47,606 bases of DNA. It comes from a virus. The notes beneath the pieces are model-generated. The model was given only the letters and a program-made list of their open reading frames with translations. It ran no database searches and was not told where the DNA came from. The stretch is from IMG/VR virus record IMGVR_UViG_3300045988_152054. One strand, 5' to 3'. Shown here piece by piece: positions 787 through 44,384 of this stretch (within the stretch, counting starts at the first letter, position 1; each line of letters opens with the position of its first letter). Both the position numbers and the translations under genes were made by a program.

Positions 787-810
787 TTCACCACCTCCTT
801 ATAGTAATAT

Positions 811-917
811 CAGCACACCCACCCTCATGTGAGTTTTATAAATTTTCGTTTTGTCTTCTACCCTCCCCCGTTGAAACGCCTCCCTTTTTTAAAAATGGTT
901 AGGGGGGAGTGGGGGGT
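811..917. promoter_or_regulatory. Candidate cos / terminase recognition region (C-tracts facing G-tracts)
   Basis: Non-coding gap between the HNH gene and terS. It holds unusually G+C-rich blocks: cacccaccctcatgtgag, taccctcccccgttgaaacgcctccc and aggggggagtggggggt. HNH-terS-terL adjacency is typical of cos phages. Confidence 0.35.
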
Positions 918-925
918 AAAAATTT

Positions 926-1283: not shown

Positions 1284-1655
1284 CTATTTCAATCCTTCCA
1301 ACATATCCCTTAGTTTATTATAATATGTATTATTATTTGTAATTCTTATTAAACTTTCTATCTCCCATGCTCTTGGCGTATTCGGAAGTTTCTTTCTAAT
1401 ACATAAGTCCACTATACTCTTAGCCTTATTAAATGAATGTACATGAGTATGGCCTTTCTCAAATGGCTTATTAGTATTATGTACAATATATCCATCACTA
1501 GCTTTGTATATGCTATATTCCTTGCGTTGAAATATCTTTCTACTTCCTGCTTTCTTATTATGCTTTGGTATTTGTTTCATAATATTTTCATACTTCCATA
1601 ATTTCTTTGGAACTTCATCTCTATCTGCTATAGTTCCTGCATCAATCCATTTCAT
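1284..1655 (-). CDS. Hypothetical protein, first gene of the packaging operon
   Basis: ORF track gives 1284-1760. I start it at MKWIDAG (1655) because an RBS AAAAGGTGTGA precedes it and the upstream extension runs through a terminator hairpin. Confidence 0.55.
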   Translation of the reverse strand: MKWIDAGTIADRDEVPKKLWKYENIMKQIPKHNKKAGSRKIFQRKEYSIYKASDGYIVHNTNKPFEKGHTHVHSFNKAKSIVDLCIRKKLPNTPRAWEIESLIRITNNNTYYNKLRDMLEGLK

Positions 1656-1674
1656 ACCAATCACACCTTTTAAC

Positions 1675-1710
1675 AAAATAAAAAAGAACACTAAATTATT
1701 AGTGTTCTTT
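1675..1710 (-). terminator. Rho-independent terminator (minus strand)
   Basis: The stem is perfect and 11 bp long: aaagaacacta (1683-1693) / tagtgttcttt (1700-1710). On the minus strand it is followed by UUUUAUUUUG. Confidence 0.7.
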
Positions 1711-2250
1711 GTGGGAGTAATGAATAAAAAACAATCATTAGAAGGTTTCCAGAGTTGCACTGGATAATACTCATACCTTCATATTGCACCCAAATCAATG
1801 GGCGCATTAAAATAGAATATAAATAATTAAAGATATAGATATATTATATAGATTTTTTAACACACAATATATATGAATATTTTGATTTTATCACGGTTTA
1901 CTCCGGAGGTTTTAAAGTGGTCCTCTCACTTCTACTACTATGTTTTAATATATATATTAGTCGCCCTCATGAGTTGAACACGAGTATATACTTGTTTCAT
2001 ATATAGTCGACAATTTAATACTCCACTTGTATATAAATCCCATAGCAACATATTGAGGGAAGAGTACCTCTACTCTTATCCCTCCAGAAACTTAAATGTT
2101 GGAATTTAAGTTCTCATTTCTCTTCCACATAATAGTGGACAAATCAGAACAGGAAAAATTATTGAAAATTAATTTACATAGCTAAGAAAAATCTGCTTTT
2201 TCTATATTTATAGAGTAACATGTTTACTATATGACATTCCATGACACGAT
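1711..2250 (-). ncRNA. Candidate large structured non-coding transcript or antitermination leader
   Basis: About 540 nt with no ORF over ~20 codons on the transcribed strand. Several stable hairpins (2055-2084, 2089-2112, 1981-2009, 1786-1805, the last with a G-U pair only on the minus strand). Bounded by the late-regulator stop and the terminator at 1675-1710. Confidence 0.3.
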
Positions 2251-2643
2251 TTATATTTTTTGTAATATTTTTCCATGAATTCTTATCGTATGTCTCCAAG
2301 AATAATTTAAGTCTACTGATATTTGTTCAAATGTCTTACCTTCTATATATCTTGATCTTGCTATTATTCTCTCTGTTGGTTCTAAGCTATTTATACATTT
2401 TTCTATTTCTAATTGTTTGTTGTATAGTTCTATCTCTTTTTTATTGTATTCTTCTATACACTCTTCAATTTTTATTAGTAAATCTTCTATTGAGTTATTA
2501 TTATGACTTGTTTGTACATTCATATCTGATATGACCATTGATTTTATAGATGTTTTTCTTTCTTCTAATTCTTTCAATTTAAATTGTATTTGTTTTAACT
2601 CTCTTTTTATACTTGTATACTCTTTTAAATCATCCTTAGTCAT
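2251..2643 (-). CDS. Late-gene transcriptional activator, RinA/ArpU/DUF1492-like (sigma-70 region-4-like HTH)
   Basis: N-terminal coiled coil and C-terminal LEPTERIIARSRYIEGKTFEQISVDLNYSWRHTIRIHGKILQKI. It is the last gene before the packaging module. Confidence 0.55.
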   Translation of the reverse strand: MTKDDLKEYTSIKRELKQIQFKLKELEERKTSIKSMVISDMNVQTSHNNNSIEDLLIKIEECIEEYNKKEIELYNKQLEIEKCINSLEPTERIIARSRYIEGKTFEQISVDLNYSWRHTIRIHGKILQKI

Positions 2644-2674: not shown

Positions 2675-3079
2675 TTACTTAAACTCCCCTTTATTTAATC
2701 TGGTAACTATTCTATTTTTTTTATAATCTAGCCATTTTTCAACTTCTTTTTTTGATATTTCATATATATCCATAACCCAATCCATGCAAATTATTACATC
2801 TGCTATTTCCTCCGCTAGATTATCTTTGTCTAATTTTCCTCTTTTAGCTTTTGATATTGCTTGTATTAATTCTGCACATTCTTCCATTGATATTGTAGAG
2901 CATAAGTTTTTATCATATTCTGGTGCTTGTCTATAACCTGCATATTCTATTTTATCTTTTTCTTTTAAGTGATTTTTATATTTTTCACATATTTCAATTC
3001 TTGCTTTCCCGTTACATTGATAAACATAGCACCAACCATTTTTATTATATTTACAATCATTACATAAATAAGCTTTCAT
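2675..3079 (-). CDS. MazG-like nucleotide pyrophosphohydrolase with N-terminal Cys-rich extension
   Basis: Motifs ..MEECAELIQAISKAKRGK..LAEEIADVIICMDWV.. match the EExxE/EExxD helices typical of MazG. Confidence 0.55.
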   Translation of the reverse strand: MKAYLCNDCKYNKNGWCYVYQCNGKARIEICEKYKNHLKEKDKIEYAGYRQAPEYDKNLCSTISMEECAELIQAISKAKRGKLDKDNLAEEIADVIICMDWVMDIYEISKKEVEKWLDYKKNRIVTRLNKGEFK

Positions 3080-13526: not shown

Positions 13527-13766
13527 TTGAAAGGTGAAATAATTTTGATTAAAACAGCAAGAAAAAAACATAAATTAACACAAAAGGAACTCGCAGAACG
13601 TTGTAATTTGTCGCAAAGTTTTCTGAGTGAATTAGAAAATAAGCATAATAAAAAGAATGTAACTATCAAGCAAATAGTAAAATTAGCAAATATATTAAAA
13701 ATAAATCATCATGAATTGGCATGTTGGTTTATAGACAAGGAATTAGGGGTGTTTGAAGTTGGATAA
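13527..13766 (+). CDS. XRE-family HTH protein co-oriented and overlapping with the integrase gene
   Basis: LTQKELAERCNLSQSFLSELENKHNK. TTG start is uncertain (13527 or 13545). It overlaps the int start by 14 nt. Confidence 0.6.
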   Translation: MKGEIILIKTARKKHKLTQKELAERCNLSQSFLSELENKHNKKNVTIKQIVKLANILKINHHELACWFIDKELGVFEVG

Positions 13767-14895
13767 TATCAAGAGTACTTTTATAAGAAAAAGAAATAAT
13801 AACTACAATGTTATAGTTGAATACTATGACGAAGCTGGCAAAATAAAACAAAAAAGTATTGCTAAATACGGATTAAAGAAAAAAGCAGAAAGGCATCTAA
13901 TAGAACTAAAAGCAGAAATACAAAATGAGAAATATATGTTTAGTAATGATATAACTGTTACTGATAGATGCTACAGATATATTAATGAAAATAAACGTGA
14001 TTGGTCGCCTTATACAGTAAAAAATAGATTAAGTTGGGTAAAATTAAATGTAGCTCCATTTTTCAAAGATACTAAAATGGAAAACTTAACAATTCACCAA
14101 ATTCAAAGATATTTAAATTATCTTTATGAAAATTTTACTGTTGAAAGTGCTAAAACAAGATTTGGTTTTTTTAGGTCAGTAGTAAAAGAATGCTATAGAA
14201 TGAAAGAAATAAAAGAAAATTTATGTGACTTTGTAAAAAGCCCTAAAAAAGAGGCTTCAAGTATAGCTGATGTTTATACAAGGGAAGAAATTTTACAACT
14301 CTTTAAATTGTTAGAAGATAAGCATTTTGAACTTCCAATTTTACTTATAGTACTTTTAGGACTTAGAAAAGGTGAAGCATACGGACTTACATGGGATGAT
14401 ATTGATTTTGATAACAACACAGTTAAAATAGAACAAATTTCTATTTATCTAGACGGAAGTTTAATTTTTAAATCTCCTAAAACAACTGATAGTAAAAGAT
14501 TATTATCTGTTCCGATTGAGCTCATGGATAAGCTAAAAAAGGAAAAGCTAAAACAAAATGAATTAAAACTTCAAGGTGTTTTAGAAAATAAATATAATTT
14601 GGTTTGCTTAAATAAAGAATTAAAACCATATAAAAATGATGATTTAAATAGATACTATCGAAAGTTTTGCAAAGAAAATAATTTTAGACAGTTAAGAATA
14701 CATGATTTAAGACATACTAATGCAACATTATTATTATTATCTGGTACAGATATGAAAACTGTATCTGGAAGGTTAGGACATACAGATATCAAAATAACAA
14801 TGAATAAATATAGTCATGTATTAGAAGAAATGGATAGAAAGGCAAGTGAAAATCTTAGCAATATATTATTTAACCAAAAGTCAACAGGTAATTAA
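13753..14895 (+). CDS. int: Tyrosine site-specific integrase
   Basis: N-terminal arm-binding-like NNYNVIVEYYDEAGKIKQKSI. Catalytic region ..LRKGEAYGL..HDLRHTNATLLL..GHTDIKITMNKYSHV (R, HxxR, H, Y). Confidence 0.9.
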   Translation: MKLDNIKSTFIRKRNNNYNVIVEYYDEAGKIKQKSIAKYGLKKKAERHLIELKAEIQNEKYMFSNDITVTDRCYRYINENKRDWSPYTVKNRLSWVKLNVAPFFKDTKMENLTIHQIQRYLNYLYENFTVESAKTRFGFFRSVVKECYRMKEIKENLCDFVKSPKKEASSIADVYTREEILQLFKLLEDKHFELPILLIVLLGLRKGEAYGLTWDDIDFDNNTVKIEQISIYLDGSLIFKSPKTTDSKRLLSVPIELMDKLKKEKLKQNELKLQGVLENKYNLVCLNKELKPYKNDDLNRYYRKFCKENNFRQLRIHDLRHTNATLLLLSGTDMKTVSGRLGHTDIKITMNKYSHVLEEMDRKASENLSNILFNQKSTGN

Positions 14896-19101: not shown

Positions 19102-19108
19102 AAATAAA

Positions 19109-19137
19109 GCTGGTAAGGAAATTAATCCCTACCAGCC
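19109..19137. terminator. Bidirectional terminator between convergent lipoprotein and endolysin genes
   Basis: agctggtaagg / ccctaccagc stem flanked by A-run and T-run. Confidence 0.6.
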
Positions 19138-19143
19138 TTTTTA

Positions 19144-24000: not shown

Positions 24001-25244
24001 TATCCACCTTCATACCCTGAAGGAGAACTAGAATTAAATGAATTATATATACTCCAGTCATGAGGTATAGATATATTATCCCAAGAATCATCATTATAAT
24101 TTTTACCAGTTTCAGTTGTTGAATTATAACTTGTATCAGATGTAGAAGAAATTAATTTAAACTTACAATCAGATAATTTACTTAATGAATTAATTTTTAC
24201 AGTTGAACCTAATATTTGAGAAATTTTAGTTGCTAATTCTTGCCAACTATCATTGCTTGTCGCATTTATCCCTTTGCCAGTAATAGCTTGAGCAATTAAA
24301 TCTTTTCCATTACTGGCATTTTGAAAAACCTCATTTATTGCACCTTTTAAATCTTGTGCTGTTGTTTGTAATGTTTCGTCTCCTATTTGTTTCGCAATTT
24401 CTTTATATTGTGCAGTAACTTCATTAACTGCACCTTTAATATCTTTAGCAGTTGTAGTTAATTCCTCAGTACCTAAATCAGTTTTAATGGTATTTATATC
24501 ACTTTTTATTTCGGTATCATCATAAGATGTGCCAGTTCCACCTGCAGGTAATTCAGTACCACTATCTAATTTTGTTCCATCCTCTTTTGCTAGGTATATT
24601 TTCCCACCTTCTACTATAGATTTAGCAGGCATTTTATTTACTTTGTCTACATTGTCTTTTGCTACTTTTTCAAGTTTATTTAATTTTGCACTAGAGATTA
24701 CATCCCCATTTCCCCAATTAGTTTGATTGTAAGTTCCGTCACTATTATAAGTATCAATTGCATCTCCATCTAAACTAAGCATAGATACATCTGCTACAGC
24801 ACTGTTAACTGTTGCTATGTCACCTTCTTCAAACAATGGTTTTAGAATATGTACTGCACCTTTTATTATTGGAAGTGATCTTATACTTTCTTGACTTTCA
24901 TTAAGAAGTCTTAGTTGTAAATCATAATCTCCTAATTCAGTATCTTCATCTATTAATTGTCCCTCTATTACAAATACAACTTTACCATCGTCAGTAGCTT
25001 GTATTGGGAATTCCTTTTTCACCTCTGCATTTTTATACCACTTAACTTGTGCATAGGATGCTTTATATTTCACTAGTAAGTTACTTAAATCATCTGACTT
25101 ATATCTGTATTTATTATCTACAATTTCTATTAACAATTTAATATTTCTATCATTCTTATATAGAAATATTTCTTCATCTAATTTGGCTGTATTCTTTGAA
25201 ACTGTCAACTTACAATCGGTTGTGATGTAATCATTATTAGCCAT
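21075..25244 (-). CDS. Baseplate/tail-fibre protein: BppU-like N-terminus, collar repeats, glycoside hydrolase family 2 module and C-terminal beta-rich domains
   Basis: I take the ATG at 25244 (MANNDYITTD), after AGGAAGGTG. GH2 sugar-binding region ..SIPHDWSIYN..WYRFKL..YIYFDGIYMESDVYINGTKV. TIM barrel ..LRGVCMHHDLG..NAIRITHNP..IMWSIGNEI. ..MFVWTGFDYIGEP. Confidence 0.75.
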   Translation of the reverse strand: MANNDYITTDCKLTVSKNTAKLDEEIFLYKNDRNIKLLIEIVDNKYRYKSDDLSNLLVKYKASYAQVKWYKNAEVKKEFPIQATDDGKVVFVIEGQLIDEDTELGDYDLQLRLLNESQESIRSLPIIKGAVHILKPLFEEGDIATVNSAVADVSMLSLDGDAIDTYNSDGTYNQTNWGNGDVISSAKLNKLEKVAKDNVDKVNKMPAKSIVEGGKIYLAKEDGTKLDSGTELPAGGTGTSYDDTEIKSDINTIKTDLGTEELTTTAKDIKGAVNEVTAQYKEIAKQIGDETLQTTAQDLKGAINEVFQNASNGKDLIAQAITGKGINATSNDSWQELATKISQILGSTVKINSLSKLSDCKFKLISSTSDTSYNSTTETGKNYNDDSWDNISIPHDWSIYNSFNSSSPSGYEGGYLDGGDAWYRFKLKTAKLEGQKVYIYFDGIYMESDVYINGTKVKDNKWYNPFYVEITDYLQYDNNDTLAVFVRNQQPSSRWYSGSGIIRNAYLVSANDVEIGINDIKITTPTLETDVKTNIANTKIDIKINSTAAKTVNLVNEIYFNNSLVKSNTKEITLSIGSNSVTDTIQINNPTLWDEYSGNLYTLKTYVKEGEVIYHSSETKYGYRYFKFDKDTGFWLNGKNLKLRGVCMHHDLGCLGAEVNKSAIERQIDLLIDMGVNAIRITHNPGSSEFLNVCAEKGILTIEEMFDCWTCAKKSNDFARYYNSHAKEVIDNTINRDKNNPSIIMWSIGNEIIRTSSSYDSATATGFVQNMINWIKAIDNERMVTMGDDTPTNSISQDCMQLLDVIGVNYGSSSEYSSVKTAIPNKSIYGSETTSALSSRGVYARDNTNKQCSSFDDDKVNWGEYASIELKKHMTDINYLAGMFVWTGFDYIGEPTPFNKYPTKSSYFGIYDTCGFPKDIMYMYQSRWTNNPMVHILPHWDWTDGNIKVWLYSNCYKVGLFLNGKSLGEKLQTGIGNKYQFEYSVTYTKGTLVANGYNQSGDIVAQDIIYTSQGTPTTVKLSTDKTNVNIGSDDLVFITCDIVDKNGVIVPTANNKITFTVEGGTIVGTDNGDATCVEKYRINIKSAFNGKVLCVVKHNGVRGNMIIKANGDNLSEKSITVVKGDKTTLTQKTKQSFIDATKPTIYDYPGTVKNYTITNNLTNCINSNVSTTIKENGNYLATITANINYKLGNVTVTMGGVDITSTSYSNGVITINSVTGNIVITANATATSSFTPVHGNGTSRISLYDGEFDGNSKEIYCEIDLATCKNVNEVIFSAGNDIANWAGCNMHMYYDQASKELQINFTDDKGAFARSVIALNDFNLNIRLNKNGLYVNDDLVTGYAGNKVGAYASYMSNFAKLKSIQIGAKQGHNLSNATYNNLIIRNITE

Positions 25245-43087: not shown

Positions 43088-43124
43088 TCTAAAAAAGAAA
43101 AGACTAGTCATAGACTAGTCTTTC
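43088..43124 (-). terminator. Rho-independent terminator after the major capsid gene
   Basis: aaagactagtc / gactagtcttt perfect stem, followed on the minus strand by a UUUUUU run. Confidence 0.7.
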
Positions 43125-43130
43125 TTATTA

Positions 43131-44384
43131 CTATTGTCCCGCTTTAGTAGTTACAGTTCCTTTAACTGTACTTTCTACAGTTCCTTTTACTTTTGTGTAT
43201 ACTACTGCTTCTTCTAATCCAGATATGTCAAGCAATAAAGAACATGTATTATCAAATGCTTTACCTTCTCCATAAGTTTTTATTTTATAAACTCTGTTGT
43301 CTTCTAGGAACTGATATTCATCTGAATAAGTTATTACTCCATCTTTTGCTGCACCCATAGCCATAAAGTACTCTTGTGGTAAGCATACTATAGCTTTACC
43401 TGTTGCAATTTCATTTGATATTACAACTTCTGTAGGGAATGGGAATACATCTTTTACATATACTCCATTTACATTAAGTAAAGTTGTAGCTGGCATTACT
43501 TTAGTTAAGTAATCTATTTGATTGCATATAAATAATACTGAACCAAATTTTCTAGTTCTTCCGCCATGTTTTTTACTCTTATCATCTGTATATTCTTCTG
43601 TTTTAGCCATTTTTGAAATTAAATCACCATAAGTTTTAGGTGAAAAATCTGTTATTTTTATAGCAGTTTTTTGAGGATATCCAGTACTAGTAGAGTATGA
43701 CACTCCTTTATGTATATCTCTATCTAAACCTATAGGAGAATTTATACCATTTCCACTAACTATTGCTTTTTCTATTCCACATGCTATGGCATCTTTCATT
43801 ATAGTTCTTACATAAGCATCTATAAATGTAGGTCCTAAATCTAACATATCTTGAGGAACTGAAACAAATGCAGATAATTTATTTTGAGTTATGTCTACTG
43901 CTTTAAATGCAGAAGTAAGTTCTTTTGTTATTTTACTGTTTAATGGTCCCCAAACTGCAGTATCTATTGTATGATCATTTAATATCCATTTAGTAAGATA
44001 TTTAGCATTTACAAAATTTATTTTAGTCAATAGTGGATGTTCTTCTAATAAATCTTTATATATATCAGTTATGATAGTTTCTGGCATTATGCCTTCTGGT
44101 GAGCCTATAAAATCTGCGAATGATTGTTGAGGTTTATTTGATTTAGCAGCTTCTATAAATCCTTTATACCATTTTTCTTCAGCAGTAGTAAGTTGTCTAT
44201 AACCTCTATCTGCTAAAACTGATTTGTCTTGAGTTTGTTGATATTCTAATGCATCATCTTTTATTTTTTGCATTTTTTCTTCTAGTGCATCACTAAGTAT
44301 TATTACTGCTTGATCTTTATCTTCTGCTTCTAAAAACTTAGTTATTTCTTCTTTAAATTTTATATCTTTATTTAATATTGCCAT
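43131..44384 (-). CDS. Major capsid protein (HK97 family)
   Basis: 417 aa directly after the prohead protease, with an N-terminal delta-domain-like coiled coil. Confidence 0.85.
   Translation of the reverse strand: MAILNKDIKFKEEITKFLEAEDKDQAVIILSDALEEKMQKIKDDALEYQQTQDKSVLADRGYRQLTTAEEKWYKGFIEAAKSNKPQQSFADFIGSPEGIMPETIITDIYKDLLEEHPLLTKINFVNAKYLTKWILNDHTIDTAVWGPLNSKITKELTSAFKAVDITQNKLSAFVSVPQDMLDLGPTFIDAYVRTIMKDAIACGIEKAIVSGNGINSPIGLDRDIHKGVSYSTSTGYPQKTAIKITDFSPKTYGDLISKMAKTEEYTDDKSKKHGGRTRKFGSVLFICNQIDYLTKVMPATTLLNVNGVYVKDVFPFPTEVVISNEIATGKAIVCLPQEYFMAMGAAKDGVITYSDEYQFLEDNRVYKIKTYGEGKAFDNTCSLLLDISGLEEAVVYTKVKGTVESTVKGTVTTKAGQ

What the first reader, a model, noticed from the sequence alone, without database searches (positions are those of the whole stretch)
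1675..2250. About 540-nt ORF-free, hairpin-rich region with its own terminator between the late activator and the packaging operon
In a genome where genes abut or overlap, this is by far the longest non-coding stretch. On the transcribed (minus) strand it has no ORF over ~20 codons. It contains several stable, relatively G+C-rich hairpins. These are gagggaagagta/tactcttatccctc (2055-2084), aacttaaat/atttaagtt (2089-2112), cgagtatata/tatatagtcg (1981-2009) and gcaccca/tgggcgc (1786-1805), the last closing with a G-U only on the minus strand. There are also the palindromes ctccggag (1901-1908) and ctcatgag. It ends in a strong intrinsic terminator (1683-1710 plus U-run) just before the RBS of the first packaging-operon gene. 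Two readings are possible. It could be a large structured phage ncRNA, since ROOL- and GOLLD-type RNAs are known from Firmicute prophages. Or it could be a lambda-Q-like antitermination leader controlling late genes. I cannot assign it to a known RNA family by eye.
Basis: partly seen in the sequence, partly recalled or inferred. Interest (0 to 1): 0.65.

Follow-up and report, generated by a model that had tools for sequence, protein, structure and literature searches.

The report
tRNA-derived structured leader of phage late genes
The long gene-free stretch is a conserved, highly folded RNA leader in front of a gut phage's late genes, containing two cut-down tRNA look-alikes and ending in a terminator; it belongs to no catalogued RNA family and probably controls how the late messenger RNA is cut and read through.

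Summary
Window 1659-2250 is the longest ORF-free stretch. It is conserved in more than 60 related gut phage and prophage contigs (Terrisporobacter, Romboutsia, Clostridium hosts), and its helices covary. It is neither ROOL nor GOLLD, and no Rfam family matches.

Read on the minus strand, the region contains:
- direct repeats and a -10-like box just after an Ltr-type late regulator gene;
- hairpins P0, P1 and P2;
- a 90-nt tRNA-like element, TLE1 (acceptor stem, GG linker, long arm, T-arm);
- a possible pseudoknot;
- hairpin H2;
- a 40-nt acceptor/T-arm minihelix, TLE2;
- a strong intrinsic terminator directly before the ribosome-binding site of the first late gene.

Each tRNA-like element follows a hairpin and the spacer CAAUAU. 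A covariance model built only from dissimilar relatives picks out the H2 + TLE2 module as its top hit in the window (E 4.5e-5). In two relatives the same slot holds a genuine tRNA-Asn, so the elements derive from tRNA.

My best reading is an Ltr-driven late-operon leader that host RNase P and RNase Z cut at these "t-element"-like modules. The conserved terminator must then be read through, by a mechanism I could not establish. Transcription, processing and read-through are all inferred, not shown.

The parts
2251..2643 (-). Late transcriptional regulator gene (Ltr-like, 130 aa, sigma-70 region 4-like C-terminus)
   Evidence: phrog_36 at E 1e-25. Sigma70_r4 and DUF1492 score just below their cut-offs. 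Weak ArpU (E 4e-5) and RinA (E 8e-4) matches. [quoted passage not shown]
2231..2246 (-). Direct repeats TGTCAT x2, 10 nt apart, just after the regulator's stop codon; TCATGGAA also occurs at 2237-2244 and 2271-2278. Putative Ltr binding sites.
   Evidence: Relatives with other regulator groups carry other repeat words at the same place. This matches the published Ltr site layout (PMC3753634, PMC13123087).
2206..2214 (-). -10-like box TCTATAAAT; predicted late transcription start near 2200
   Evidence: Read from the sequence. A TATAAT- or TAGTAT-like box follows the repeats in every subtype. The start site is inferred, not mapped.
2125..2138 (-). Hairpin P0 (CCAC-UAUUAU-GUGG), in the variable 5' part of the leader
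   Evidence: Other subtypes have a different hairpin here.
2088..2113 (-). Hairpin P1 (GAACUUAAAU / AUUUAAGUUU)
   Evidence: The 3' strand is nearly invariant. L001-type sequences have AAUU/AAUU in place of AAAU/AUUU.
2055..2085 (-). Hairpin P2 with GAGG loop; the upstream hairpin of module 1
   Evidence: Predicted by RNAalifold. Outer stem variants: GAGGGA/UCCCUC, GAGGAAGG/CCUUCCUC (L011), GAGAGGC/GCCUCUC (L284), GAGGGACA/UGUCCCUC (L299).
1960..2049 (-). tRNA-like element 1 (TLE1, 90 nt). Acceptor GUUGCU (2044-2049) pairs with GGCGAC (1960-1965); GG linker at 2039-2041; long arm 1985-2037; T-arm 1966-1984 with loop UUCAACU. It is preceded by AAUAU (2050-2054) and followed by UAAU (1956-1959).
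   Evidence: RNAalifold on 14 sequences: acceptor and T-stem have no broken pairs, and 7 of those 11 pairs change on both sides. Four sequence alleles fold to the same Y shape. ARAGORN does not call it a tRNA.
1901..1931 (-). Hairpin AAGUG-AGAGGAC-CACUU (1915-1931) and downstream CCUCC (1905-1909); tentative pseudoknot
   Evidence: Read from the alignments. L011 has loop GGCA with downstream UGCC; L017 has GGCA with UGUC. Not formally tested.
1786..1805 (-). Hairpin H2 (GCGCCCA / UGGGUGC, with one G-U on the minus strand only); the upstream hairpin of module 2
   Evidence: Helix 1 of model R1 is 100% paired, and all 7 pairs covary across 14 modules. The equivalent plus-strand pair would be A-C.
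1741..1780 (-). tRNA-like element 2 (TLE2, 40 nt minihelix). Acceptor GAAGGU (1775-1780) pairs with ACCUUC (1741-1746); T-arm 1748-1764 with loop UGCAACU. It is preceded by AAUAU (1781-1785) and followed by UAAU (1737-1740).
   Evidence: Model R1, built only from type-B relatives, hits 1730-1816(-) at 31.6 bits, E 4.5e-5; this is the best hit in the window. The module aligns with the hairpin + tRNA-Asn of L311, minus the D and anticodon arms.
1718..1740 (-). Small hairpin UAAUGA-UUGUUUUUUAU-UCAUUA between TLE2 and the terminator
   Evidence: Conserved only among close relatives.
1674..1710 (-). Intrinsic terminator: 12-bp stem at 1683-1710 plus U-tract at 1674-1682
   Evidence: Hairpin energy -13.1 kcal/mol. 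Every lineage has a hairpin plus U-tract here with an unrelated sequence.
1284..1671 (-). Ribosome-binding site (1660-1671) and first late gene (phrog_9079, 124 aa, function unknown), followed by HNH, terS and terL

Best explanation
The region is the roughly 540-nt 5' leader of the late (packaging, head, tail, lysis) operon, transcribed on the minus strand.

**Proposed sequence of events**
1. The Ltr-like regulator (2251-2643) binds the direct repeats just after its own stop codon. It switches on a promoter with a -10-like box at 2206-2214. *Inferred by analogy.*
2. The nascent leader folds into hairpins P0-P2, tRNA-like element 1, a possible pseudoknot, hairpin H2 and tRNA-like element 2. *The helices are shown by covariation.*
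3. Each tRNA-like element keeps what tRNA-end-processing enzymes need: an acceptor stem, a T-arm with a T-loop, a GG 'D-loop' remnant, U at -1, A at -4 and -5, and no CCA. Host RNase P is therefore predicted to cut at 2050/2049 and 1781/1780. RNase Z is predicted to cut after U1959 and U1740. *Inferred.*
4. These cuts would release two small tRNA-like RNAs and two leader fragments that end in a hairpin. They would also leave a late mRNA with a defined 5' end 60-120 nt before the start codon. *Inferred.*
5. The elements descend from real tRNA genes that once sat, and in some relatives still sit, in this leader. *Shown.*
6. The conserved intrinsic terminator at 1674-1710 lies between the leader and the first ribosome-binding site, and no conserved promoter was seen after it. 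Late gene expression therefore needs read-through. This could come from leakiness or from a terminator-resistant polymerase; which one is not known.
For: **Conservation**
- blastn finds the region at 82-96% identity in L001-L016. This includes loci whose downstream protein is only 76% identical.
- All 62 phrog_9079-anchored loci keep a gap of 390-780 nt that has no plus-strand ORF of at least 60 aa.

**Structure**
- Type-B modules are 94.6% paired, against 27-40% for slid controls. 12 of 23 pairs change on both sides, and 0 of 500 shuffles reach this.
- RNAalifold on an unfitted MAFFT alignment of 14 type-A sequences predicts P2, the TLE1 acceptor, the base of the long arm and the T-stem. 14 of 27 pairs are compensatory.
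- Across 14 diverse modules, 96% of cells pair and 20 of 23 pairs covary (this alignment was fitted to the model).

**Family relationship**
- Model R1, built without any type-A sequence, finds window 1730-1816(-) at E 4.5e-5.
- It also finds P2 + TLE1 of L017 and L011 at E 8e-5 and 3e-4.

**tRNA origin**
- L311 and L305 have tRNA-Asn(GTT) with CCA in the homologous slot.
- L300, L010 and the window align to it with the D and anticodon arms deleted.

**Strand**
- G-U pairs in the covarying helices (UG at columns 90-178, 93-175 and 109-149) would be A-C on the other strand.

**Promoter**
- There are at least 8 regulator groups, each with its own repeat word immediately after the stop codon. The five regulators scanned (window, L002, L018, L020, L311) all match phrog_36.
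- Published Ltr proteins bind such repeats (PMC3753634). Phi13 has the same gene order: ltr, unknown gene, HNH, terS, terL (PMC13123087).

**Terminator**
-.

**Processing enzymes**
- B. subtilis RNase Z cuts CCA-less precursors after the discriminator, and RNase P cleaves CCA-less precursors (PMC1874595).
- Non-canonical tRNA-like 't-elements' direct RNase P and RNase Z cuts in plant mitochondrial mRNAs (PMC1920247).
Against: - No expression data exist. The start site, the cleavages and the read-through are all predictions.
- The window has only two perfect repeat copies.
- The T-loop of TLE2 (UGCAACU) departs from UUCRANU at position 55. Its T-stem has 4-5 bp.
- A hairpin ending 5 nt before the cleavage site could hinder RNase P protein contacts rather than help.
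- The tRNA origin makes 'slowly decaying relic' a live alternative.
- In staphylococcal phages phi11 and 80alpha, the late 5' end was mapped 23 bp before terS, that is downstream of the intergenic terminator (PMC3152322). This warns against assuming the promoter lies next to the repeats.
- Related sequences are not independent, so shuffle controls overstate significance.
Confidence: 0.5

Rival explanations
1. The leader acts in trans. Transcription from the late promoter mostly stops at 1674-1710. The resulting ~0.5-kb RNA, or the tRNA-like and hairpin-capped pieces cut from it, acts on the host. It could serve as a tRNA mimic or decoy for tRNA-targeting defence nucleases, tRNA-modifying enzymes or RNase P.
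For: - A strong terminator is conserved at the 3' end.
- The T-loop and acceptor are kept while the decoding parts are lost.
- Two modules sit in tandem.
- Other large prophage RNAs and bacterial or phage tRNA mimics are known (Y RNA-like RNAs, PMC4201824).
Against: [quoted passage not shown] It is therefore at least also a cis leader.
- The number of modules varies from 1 to 2, and TLE2 is absent in L299.
- No target is identifiable.
Confidence: 0.17
2. The tRNA-like elements are non-functional relics. Ancestral phages carried tRNA genes in the late leader. In this lineage the genes lost their D and anticodon arms and now drift. Only the promoter and terminator matter.
For: - A real tRNA-Asn sits at the homologous place in L311 and L305, and a half-decayed copy in L300.
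- TLE1 occurs as exchangeable sequence 'alleles' that could be separate captures.
- TLE2 is missing in L299.
Against: - Acceptor and T-stems stay paired (96-100%) through many two-sided changes. This holds even within otherwise near-identical type-B sequences: GC vs AU in 9 vs 8 sequences, and CG vs UA in 9 vs 7.
- All lineages share the same oddities: a 6-bp acceptor, a purine-purine 7:66 mismatch, a GG linker, the CAAYRU leader and the UAAU trailer.
- T-loop positions U54, C56, R57 and A58 are invariant.
Confidence: 0.15
3. The leader serves processive antitermination. One option is that the conserved 5' hairpins P1 and P2 act on RNA polymerase as HK022 put or B. subtilis EAR RNAs do. The other is that the sigma-region-4-like Ltr protein loads at the repeats like lambda Q. 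Either way, late transcription would pass the leader terminator and the later terminator-like hairpin after the capsid gene.
For: - A conserved terminator precedes the first late gene in every lineage.
- A second minus-strand terminator-like site lies at 43098-43124, inside the late block.
- No conserved alternative pairing with the terminator's 5' arm was seen (inspection).
- RinA needs DNA more than 155 bp upstream of the mapped terS 5' end, with a terminator in between, and this remains unexplained (PMC3152322).
Against: - The regulator shows no homology to Q, and the RNA shows none to put or EAR.
- Type-B leaders lack P1 and P2.
- Terminators after capsid genes are common and often leaky.
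- This mechanism could coexist with the processing model rather than replace it.
Confidence: 0.13
4. The region is a DNA-level element such as a packaging site, a replication origin or an attachment site that copies a host tRNA 3' end.
For: - The plus strand folds as well as the minus strand (z -3.9).
- The region lies near the packaging genes.
- Integrases often target the T-arm and acceptor ends of tRNA genes.
Against: - The covarying helices contain G-U pairs that are mismatches on the other strand.
- The 5' acceptor strand covaries with the 3' strand, which an attachment site does not need.
- The probable integrase ORF (13753-14895; a guess from its size and position, not annotated here) is 12 kb away.
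- A likelier cos region with C and G runs lies at 787-925.
Confidence: 0.03

Closest known systems
Ltr (RinA / ArpU / LtrC, and Alt) controlled late-promoter regions of Gram-positive siphophages
   Same: [quoted passage not shown]
- Direct repeats follow immediately after its stop codon.
- A terminator lies in the intergenic region, followed by packaging genes. The Phi13 order is ltr, unknown gene, HNH, terS, terL (PMC3753634, PMC3152322, PMC13123087).
   Different: - Here the intergenic region is about 590 nt.
- It is a covarying structured RNA with tRNA-derived modules.
- The terminator abuts the ribosome-binding site, leaving no room for a promoter after it.
- None of this is described for the staphylococcal or lactococcal cases.
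Plant mitochondrial t-elements (tRNA-like processing signals)
   Same: - Both are non-canonical tRNA-like structures that keep the T-arm and acceptor stem.
- Both are embedded in mRNA leaders or trailers.
- Both occur alongside cases where a genuine tRNA sits at the same kind of position.
- RNase P and RNase Z make the mRNA ends (PMC1920247).
   Different: - The system here is a bacterial virus.
- Cleavage is not demonstrated.
- The elements are each paired with an upstream hairpin and a fixed 5-nt spacer.
MALAT1 / MEN-beta 3'-end formation through the tRNA-like mascRNA
   Same: A stable structure lies just upstream of a tRNA-like element whose RNase P cleavage would create a protected 3' end and release a small tRNA-like RNA (from my own knowledge).
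   Different: - That case is eukaryotic and nuclear.
- The upstream structure there is a triple helix, not a simple hairpin.
- There is no sequence relation.
Lambda pR'-tR' leader (6S RNA) with Q antitermination
   Same: The late promoter is followed by a non-coding leader and a terminator that must be overcome before late genes are expressed. The regulator gene lies immediately upstream.
   Different: - The regulator is not a Q homologue.
- The leader is 2-3 times longer and structured.
- No Q-binding or pause element is identified.
ROOL and GOLLD large prophage RNAs
   Same: - Both are several-hundred-nt structured RNAs of Firmicute phages and prophages.
- Both are often found next to tRNAs (from my own knowledge).
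   Different: The Rfam covariance models give no match at gathering or permissive thresholds. The architecture is also different.
tRNA genes co-transcribed with mRNAs (e.g. the E. coli tRNA-tufB operon) and phage-encoded tRNAs
   Same: In L311 and L305 a real tRNA-Asn lies in the late leader. The window's elements descend from such genes.
   Different: The window's elements lack D and anticodon arms and cannot decode.

Membership tests
ROOL / GOLLD / any Rfam family | Match to the family covariance model at its gathering score | tested here: not met
   There are 0 gathering hits in the whole window and in 8 related loci. The permissive scan of 1500-2800 gives only noise at E 0.8 or above.
Canonical tRNA gene | Full cloverleaf with D-arm and a 7-nt anticodon loop, detectable by ARAGORN or the Rfam tRNA model | tested here: not met
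   ARAGORN finds none in the window or in 28 relatives. The Rfam tRNA model scores 15.4 bits against a gathering score of 29 on L018. The feature is met only in L311 and L305, which have tRNA-Asn.
Canonical tRNA gene | Acceptor stem stacked on a T-arm with the T-loop consensus U-U-C-R-A-N-U | tested here: met
   Acceptor and T-stems are 97-100% paired and covary. The loops are UUCAACU (TLE1) and UGCAACU (TLE2, one deviation).
tmRNA | tRNA-like domain plus a tag reading frame, detectable by ARAGORN | tested here: not met
   One search finds none. There is also no G3:U70.
Ltr-controlled late promoter region (RinA/ArpU/LtrC type) | The regulator gene belongs to the Ltr superfamily and lies directly before the packaging genes | tested here: met
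   phrog_36 at E 1e-25, with weak ArpU and RinA matches below their cut-offs. The gene order is regulator, leader, phrog_9079, HNH, terS, terL.
Ltr-controlled late promoter region (RinA/ArpU/LtrC type) | [quoted passage not shown] | tested here: met
   The window has TGTCAT x2 at 10-nt spacing. Nine different repeat words track different regulator groups.
Ltr-controlled late promoter region (RinA/ArpU/LtrC type) | Late transcription depends on the regulator binding these repeats | not testable with these tools
   This needs reporter fusions or gel-shift assays.
Lambda Q-type antitermination leader | The regulator is a Q-family protein | tested here: not met
   No Q-family Pfam or NCBIfam hit appears. 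Matches are to sigma region 4, ArpU and RinA.
Lambda Q-type antitermination leader | A terminator lies between the late promoter and the late genes | tested here: met
   The terminator is at 1674-1710 and is conserved in position in all lineages. The promoter position itself is inferred.
Lambda Q-type antitermination leader | A promoter-proximal sigma-dependent pause and regulator-dependent read-through | not testable with these tools
   This needs in vitro transcription.
t-element-like RNase P/Z processing signal | A non-canonical tRNA-like fold that keeps the acceptor stem and T-arm, inside an mRNA leader | tested here: met
t-element-like RNase P/Z processing signal | Transcript 5' and 3' ends coincide with the ends of the element | not testable with these tools
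   No transcript data are available.
Riboswitch-type attenuator | A conserved alternative (antiterminator) pairing that competes with the terminator's 5' arm | tested here: inconclusive
   None was seen by inspection across lineages. GUGUUC in the window's TLE1 T-arm could pair with the terminator arm, but it is specific to one allele. No formal search was made.

The most novel reading that the evidence does not exclude
These gut phages use tRNA-derived 't-elements' as RNase P/Z punctuation marks. The cuts would carve a ~0.5-kb late leader into hairpin-capped small RNAs, small tRNA-like RNAs and a processed late mRNA. This would be a bacterial-virus counterpart of mitochondrial tRNA punctuation and of MALAT1-mascRNA 3'-end formation. 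In addition, the sigma-region-4-like Ltr regulator would make RNA polymerase resistant to the conserved leader terminator, in a Q-like way. That would also explain why RinA-type regulators bind far upstream of the mapped terS 5' end.
Probability: 0.2. Interest if true: 0.8.

Novelty: new variant of a known kind. Interest (0 to 1): 0.68.

Why it matters
- **A possible second control layer.** Late-gene control in Gram-positive temperate phages is known only at the level of 'Ltr protein binds repeats'. This family adds a large, conserved RNA layer between the regulator and the packaging genes. It gives concrete, testable cleavage sites and a terminator whose read-through must be explained.
- **tRNA decay into a kept element.** The family documents a path from a working phage tRNA to reduced acceptor/T-arm elements that are still under structural selection.
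- **An uncatalogued motif.** It supplies a new covariance-model-definable RNA motif (hairpin, CAAYRU, tRNA-like element) that is absent from Rfam. The motif is common in human-gut Peptostreptococcaceae and Clostridium phages.
- **If processing is confirmed.** It would be, to my knowledge, the first t-element-like mRNA punctuation described in a bacteriophage.

Tried and rejected
- **Rfam.** Gathering and permissive searches found nothing meaningful.
- **Deposited phages.** blastn of the window region, a type-B leader and the L311 leader against 50,697 phage records gave no match.
- **tRNA and tmRNA detection.** ARAGORN found none in the window or close relatives.
- **Short DNA word.** The 15-nt word TYCCTCAATATGTTG gave mostly chance hits in viral contigs. 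I replaced it with a gapped 26-base pattern.
- **phiCTP1.** It has a 614-nt gap before its phrog_9079 homologue, but I saw no T-loop module there. In phiCD211 the homologue sits in a different context.
- **Conserved small peptide.** Rejected, because relatives differ by frameshifting indels and the substitutions are stem-compensatory.
- **Promoter between terminator and ribosome-binding site.** TAATAAT in the window's terminator loop is not conserved, and type-B leaders have nothing comparable.
- **Anti-Shine-Dalgarno role for the C-rich motif before the terminator.** The pairing does not work out.
It is out-competed by a covarying long-range stem.
- **MAFFT misalignment.** MAFFT misaligned P1, and P2 of L011 and L017, so P1 and the pseudoknot were not formally tested.
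Full report
**Context.** The window is an AT-rich (about 27-30% G+C) siphophage genome with nearly all genes on the minus strand. Around the finding, the minus-strand order is:
- a MazG-like gene (2675-3079);
- a 130-aa regulator (2251-2643). It matches phrog_36 'transcriptional regulator' at E 1e-25. It scores just under the cut-offs for Sigma70_r4 and DUF1492, and gives weak ArpU and RinA matches;
- the non-coding interval 1659-2250;
- a 124-aa protein of unknown function (phrog_9079, 1284-1658);
- an HNH endonuclease (926-1282);
- a 139-nt gap with C and G runs;
- the small terminase subunit (442-786) and the start of the large subunit.

Published staphylococcal cos phages have the same order: ltr, unknown gene, HNH, terS, terL (PMC13123087).

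**Checking the observation.** The interval is the longest ORF-free stretch in the window, 480 nt against 331 nt for the next, counting ORFs of at least 50 aa in any frame. They lack ribosome-binding sites, and frameshifting indels break them in relatives. The terminator at 1683-1710 is found by the scan. The region folds better than shuffled sequence on both strands, with z -3.2 and -3.9. Energy alone therefore says 'palindrome-rich' but does not say which strand matters.

**Known families.** Rfam gives no hit at gathering thresholds in the window or in eight related loci. The permissive scan gives only noise. ARAGORN finds no tRNA or tmRNA. No deposited phage genome matches the DNA.

**Relatives.**
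- Searching IMG/VR with the downstream protein returned 62 loci. All keep a gap of 390-780 nt, free of plus-strand ORFs of at least 60 aa, between the regulator and the first late gene.
- blastn shows the window's region at 82-96% identity in L001-L016. This includes loci whose downstream protein is only 76% identical, and there is weak similarity in L011 and L017.
- A gapped DNA pattern found further copies in viral contigs and in human-gut metagenomes.
- A species-representative genome scan places relatives in Terrisporobacter muris, Romboutsia sp. and Clostridium spp..
- An HNH-anchored scan added more diverged leaders: L284, L299, L300, L305 and L311.

**Anatomy.** Two leader types exist: type A (the window and L001-L017) and type B (L018-L062). 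They share one plan:
1. the regulator's stop codon;
2. short direct repeats spaced about 10-11 nt apart;
3. a TATAAT- or TAGTAT-like box;
4. a structured leader;
5. a hairpin, then a 5-nt spacer (AAUAU, ACGU or ACAU, preceded by C);
6. a tRNA-like element, then UAAU;
7. about 60 nt of linker;
8. a hairpin plus U-tract;
9. the ribosome-binding site and the start codon.

Window coordinates for these features are listed under 'parts'.

**The tRNA-like elements.**
- TLE1 (1960-2049) has a 6-bp acceptor stem (GUUGCU/GGCGAC), a linker containing GG, a roughly 50-nt arm, and a T-arm with loop UUCAACU.
- TLE1 occurs as at least five sequence 'alleles' between invariant flanks. Four of them were folded, and all four give the same Y shape.
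- The acceptor pairs read GUUGCU/GGCGAC, /GGCAGC or /GGCAAC; GCUGAU/AUCAGC; GUUGGC/GCUGAC; GUUAAC/GUUAGC; and GUUAGC/GCUGGC.
- TLE2 (1741-1780) is a bare acceptor/T-arm minihelix.
- All elements share several oddities: a non-Watson-Crick 7:66 position, a G-rich linker, U at -1, A at -4 and -5, and no CCA.

**Statistics.**
- *Type-B modules.* On a MAFFT alignment of 18 modules with a structure I specified, 94.6% of cells pair, against 27-40% when the partners are slid. 12 of 23 pairs change on both sides, and no shuffle out of 500 reaches the observed values.
- *Type-A sequences.* RNAalifold, run on an unfitted MAFFT alignment of 14 sequences, predicted P2, the TLE1 acceptor, the base of the long arm and the T-stem on its own. 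Acceptor and T-stem have no broken pairs, and 14 of 27 pairs are compensatory.
- *Cross-type search.* A covariance model built only from type-B modules scored window 1730-1816(-) at 31.6 bits, E 4.5e-5. This was the best hit in the whole window with filters off. The model also hit P2 + TLE1 of L017 and L011. The type-A leader is therefore two tandem copies of one 'hairpin, spacer, tRNA-like' module.
- *All modules.* On the model-fitted alignment of 14 diverse modules, 96% of cells pair and 20 of 23 pairs covary. This alignment leans towards the model.
- *Strand.* G-U pairs in these helices fix the strand as minus.

**Origin.** In L311 and L305 the homologous slot holds a genuine tRNA-Asn(GTT) with encoded CCA, behind the same hairpin 3' arm and spacer UGGGUGCAAUAU. 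L300 has a half-decayed copy. L010 and the window align to it with the D and anticodon arms deleted. The elements are therefore tRNA-derived. In L311 the first late gene is phrog_1315, not phrog_9079. The RNA thus goes with the junction between regulator and late operon, not with one downstream gene.

**Promoter side.** The regulators upstream of these leaders fall into at least eight groups that are under 55% identical or cannot be aligned. The five scanned all match phrog_36. Each group has its own repeat word directly after the stop codon:

| Repeat word | Locus |
|---|---|
| TGTCAT | window |
| GTACT | L001 |
| TTGGACAC | L006 |
| GGACA | L002 |
| TTCCGTAAA | L018 |
| GGGGWTTT | L020 |
| CACTTTAACTA | L066 |
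| TGATACA | L284 |
| GGAATAAAA | L311 |

This is the layout shown experimentally for the RinA, ArpU and LtrC binding sites (PMC3753634), for Phi13 (repeats at -107 to -42; PMC13123087) and for TP901-1 Alt. I therefore place the late start near 2200. This is an inference. In phi11 and 80alpha the mapped 5' end was 23 bp before terS, while RinA needed DNA more than 155 bp upstream, with a terminator in between (PMC3152322).

**Terminator side.** Every lineage has a hairpin of -8 to -16 kcal/mol plus a U-tract just before the ribosome-binding site, with unrelated sequences. I saw no conserved -10-like box after it, so late transcription has to pass it. I also saw no conserved alternative pairing with its 5' arm. 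A second terminator-like hairpin follows the probable capsid gene at 43098-43124.

**Mechanism.** I commit to the following model. The region is an Ltr-dependent late leader whose tRNA-derived modules are cut by host RNase P and RNase Z, the route used for CCA-less pre-tRNAs in Firmicutes (PMC1874595). It works like the t-elements of plant mitochondria (PMC1920247). Read-through of the terminator is needed for late genes.
- *Shown:* conservation, helices, family relationship, tRNA origin, terminator conservation and regulator-specific repeats.
- *Inferred:* start site, cleavages and read-through.

The rivals, with their probabilities, are listed separately: a trans-acting tRNA mimic, non-functional relics, processive antitermination, and a DNA-level element.

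**Verdict.** The finding is a real, conserved and uncatalogued structured RNA region. The closest known analogues work in other systems, so I rate it a new variant of a known kind, with interest 0.68.

Noticed in passing
window 787-925: The gap between the HNH and terS genes carries two C-rich direct repeats (862-876 and 879-893). By eye, a G-run (GGGGGGAGTGGGGGG) follows at about 901-916. This is probably the cos region of this HNH/terS/terL phage.
   Followed up: partly
L311 1866-1939 and L305 1866-1939: A genuine tRNA-Asn(GTT) with encoded CCA sits in the late leader, behind the same hairpin and AAUAU spacer that precede the window's TLE2. L300, L301 and L322 return no tRNA; L300 was inspected and holds a degenerate copy (L301 and L322 were not looked at).
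   Followed up: yes
window 2231-2278 and the first ~100 nt after the regulator stop codon in L001, L002, L006, L018, L020, L066, L284, L311: The regulators fall into at least eight groups that are dissimilar or cannot be aligned; the five scanned all match phrog_36. Each group is followed by its own direct-repeat word, while the leader core downstream is shared. This looks like cassette-like mosaicism of regulator plus binding site.
   Followed up: partly
window 43098-43124 (-) and 19106-19139 (-): There are two terminator-like hairpins on the gene strand. One lies right after the 417-aa ORF at 43131-44384 (probable major capsid gene). The other lies at the end of the late block.
   Followed up: no
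window 1284-1658 (-): The first late gene encodes a small phrog_9079 protein of unknown function with an invariant G-H-T-H segment. In type-B phages it lacks the first 38 residues. In Clostridioides phage phiCD211 a homologue sits next to the DNA polymerase gene.
   Followed up: partly
window 24265-24342 (-): The hairpin + tRNA-like model gives a weak match here (17.5 bits, E 0.053), inside the 1392-aa ORF. Only the acceptor-like part aligns, so this is probably chance.
   Followed up: no
L268 434-700: In this human-gut contig the leader breaks off inside TLE1 and continues into unrelated sequence. This is either a rearranged copy or an assembly chimera.
   Followed up: no
L063 1848-2461 (Clostridium phage phiCTP1): A 614-nt unannotated gap precedes the phrog_9079 homologue (ORF86) of this cultured phage. 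It holds a terminator-like hairpin near 2010-2040 but no T-loop module.
   Followed up: partly
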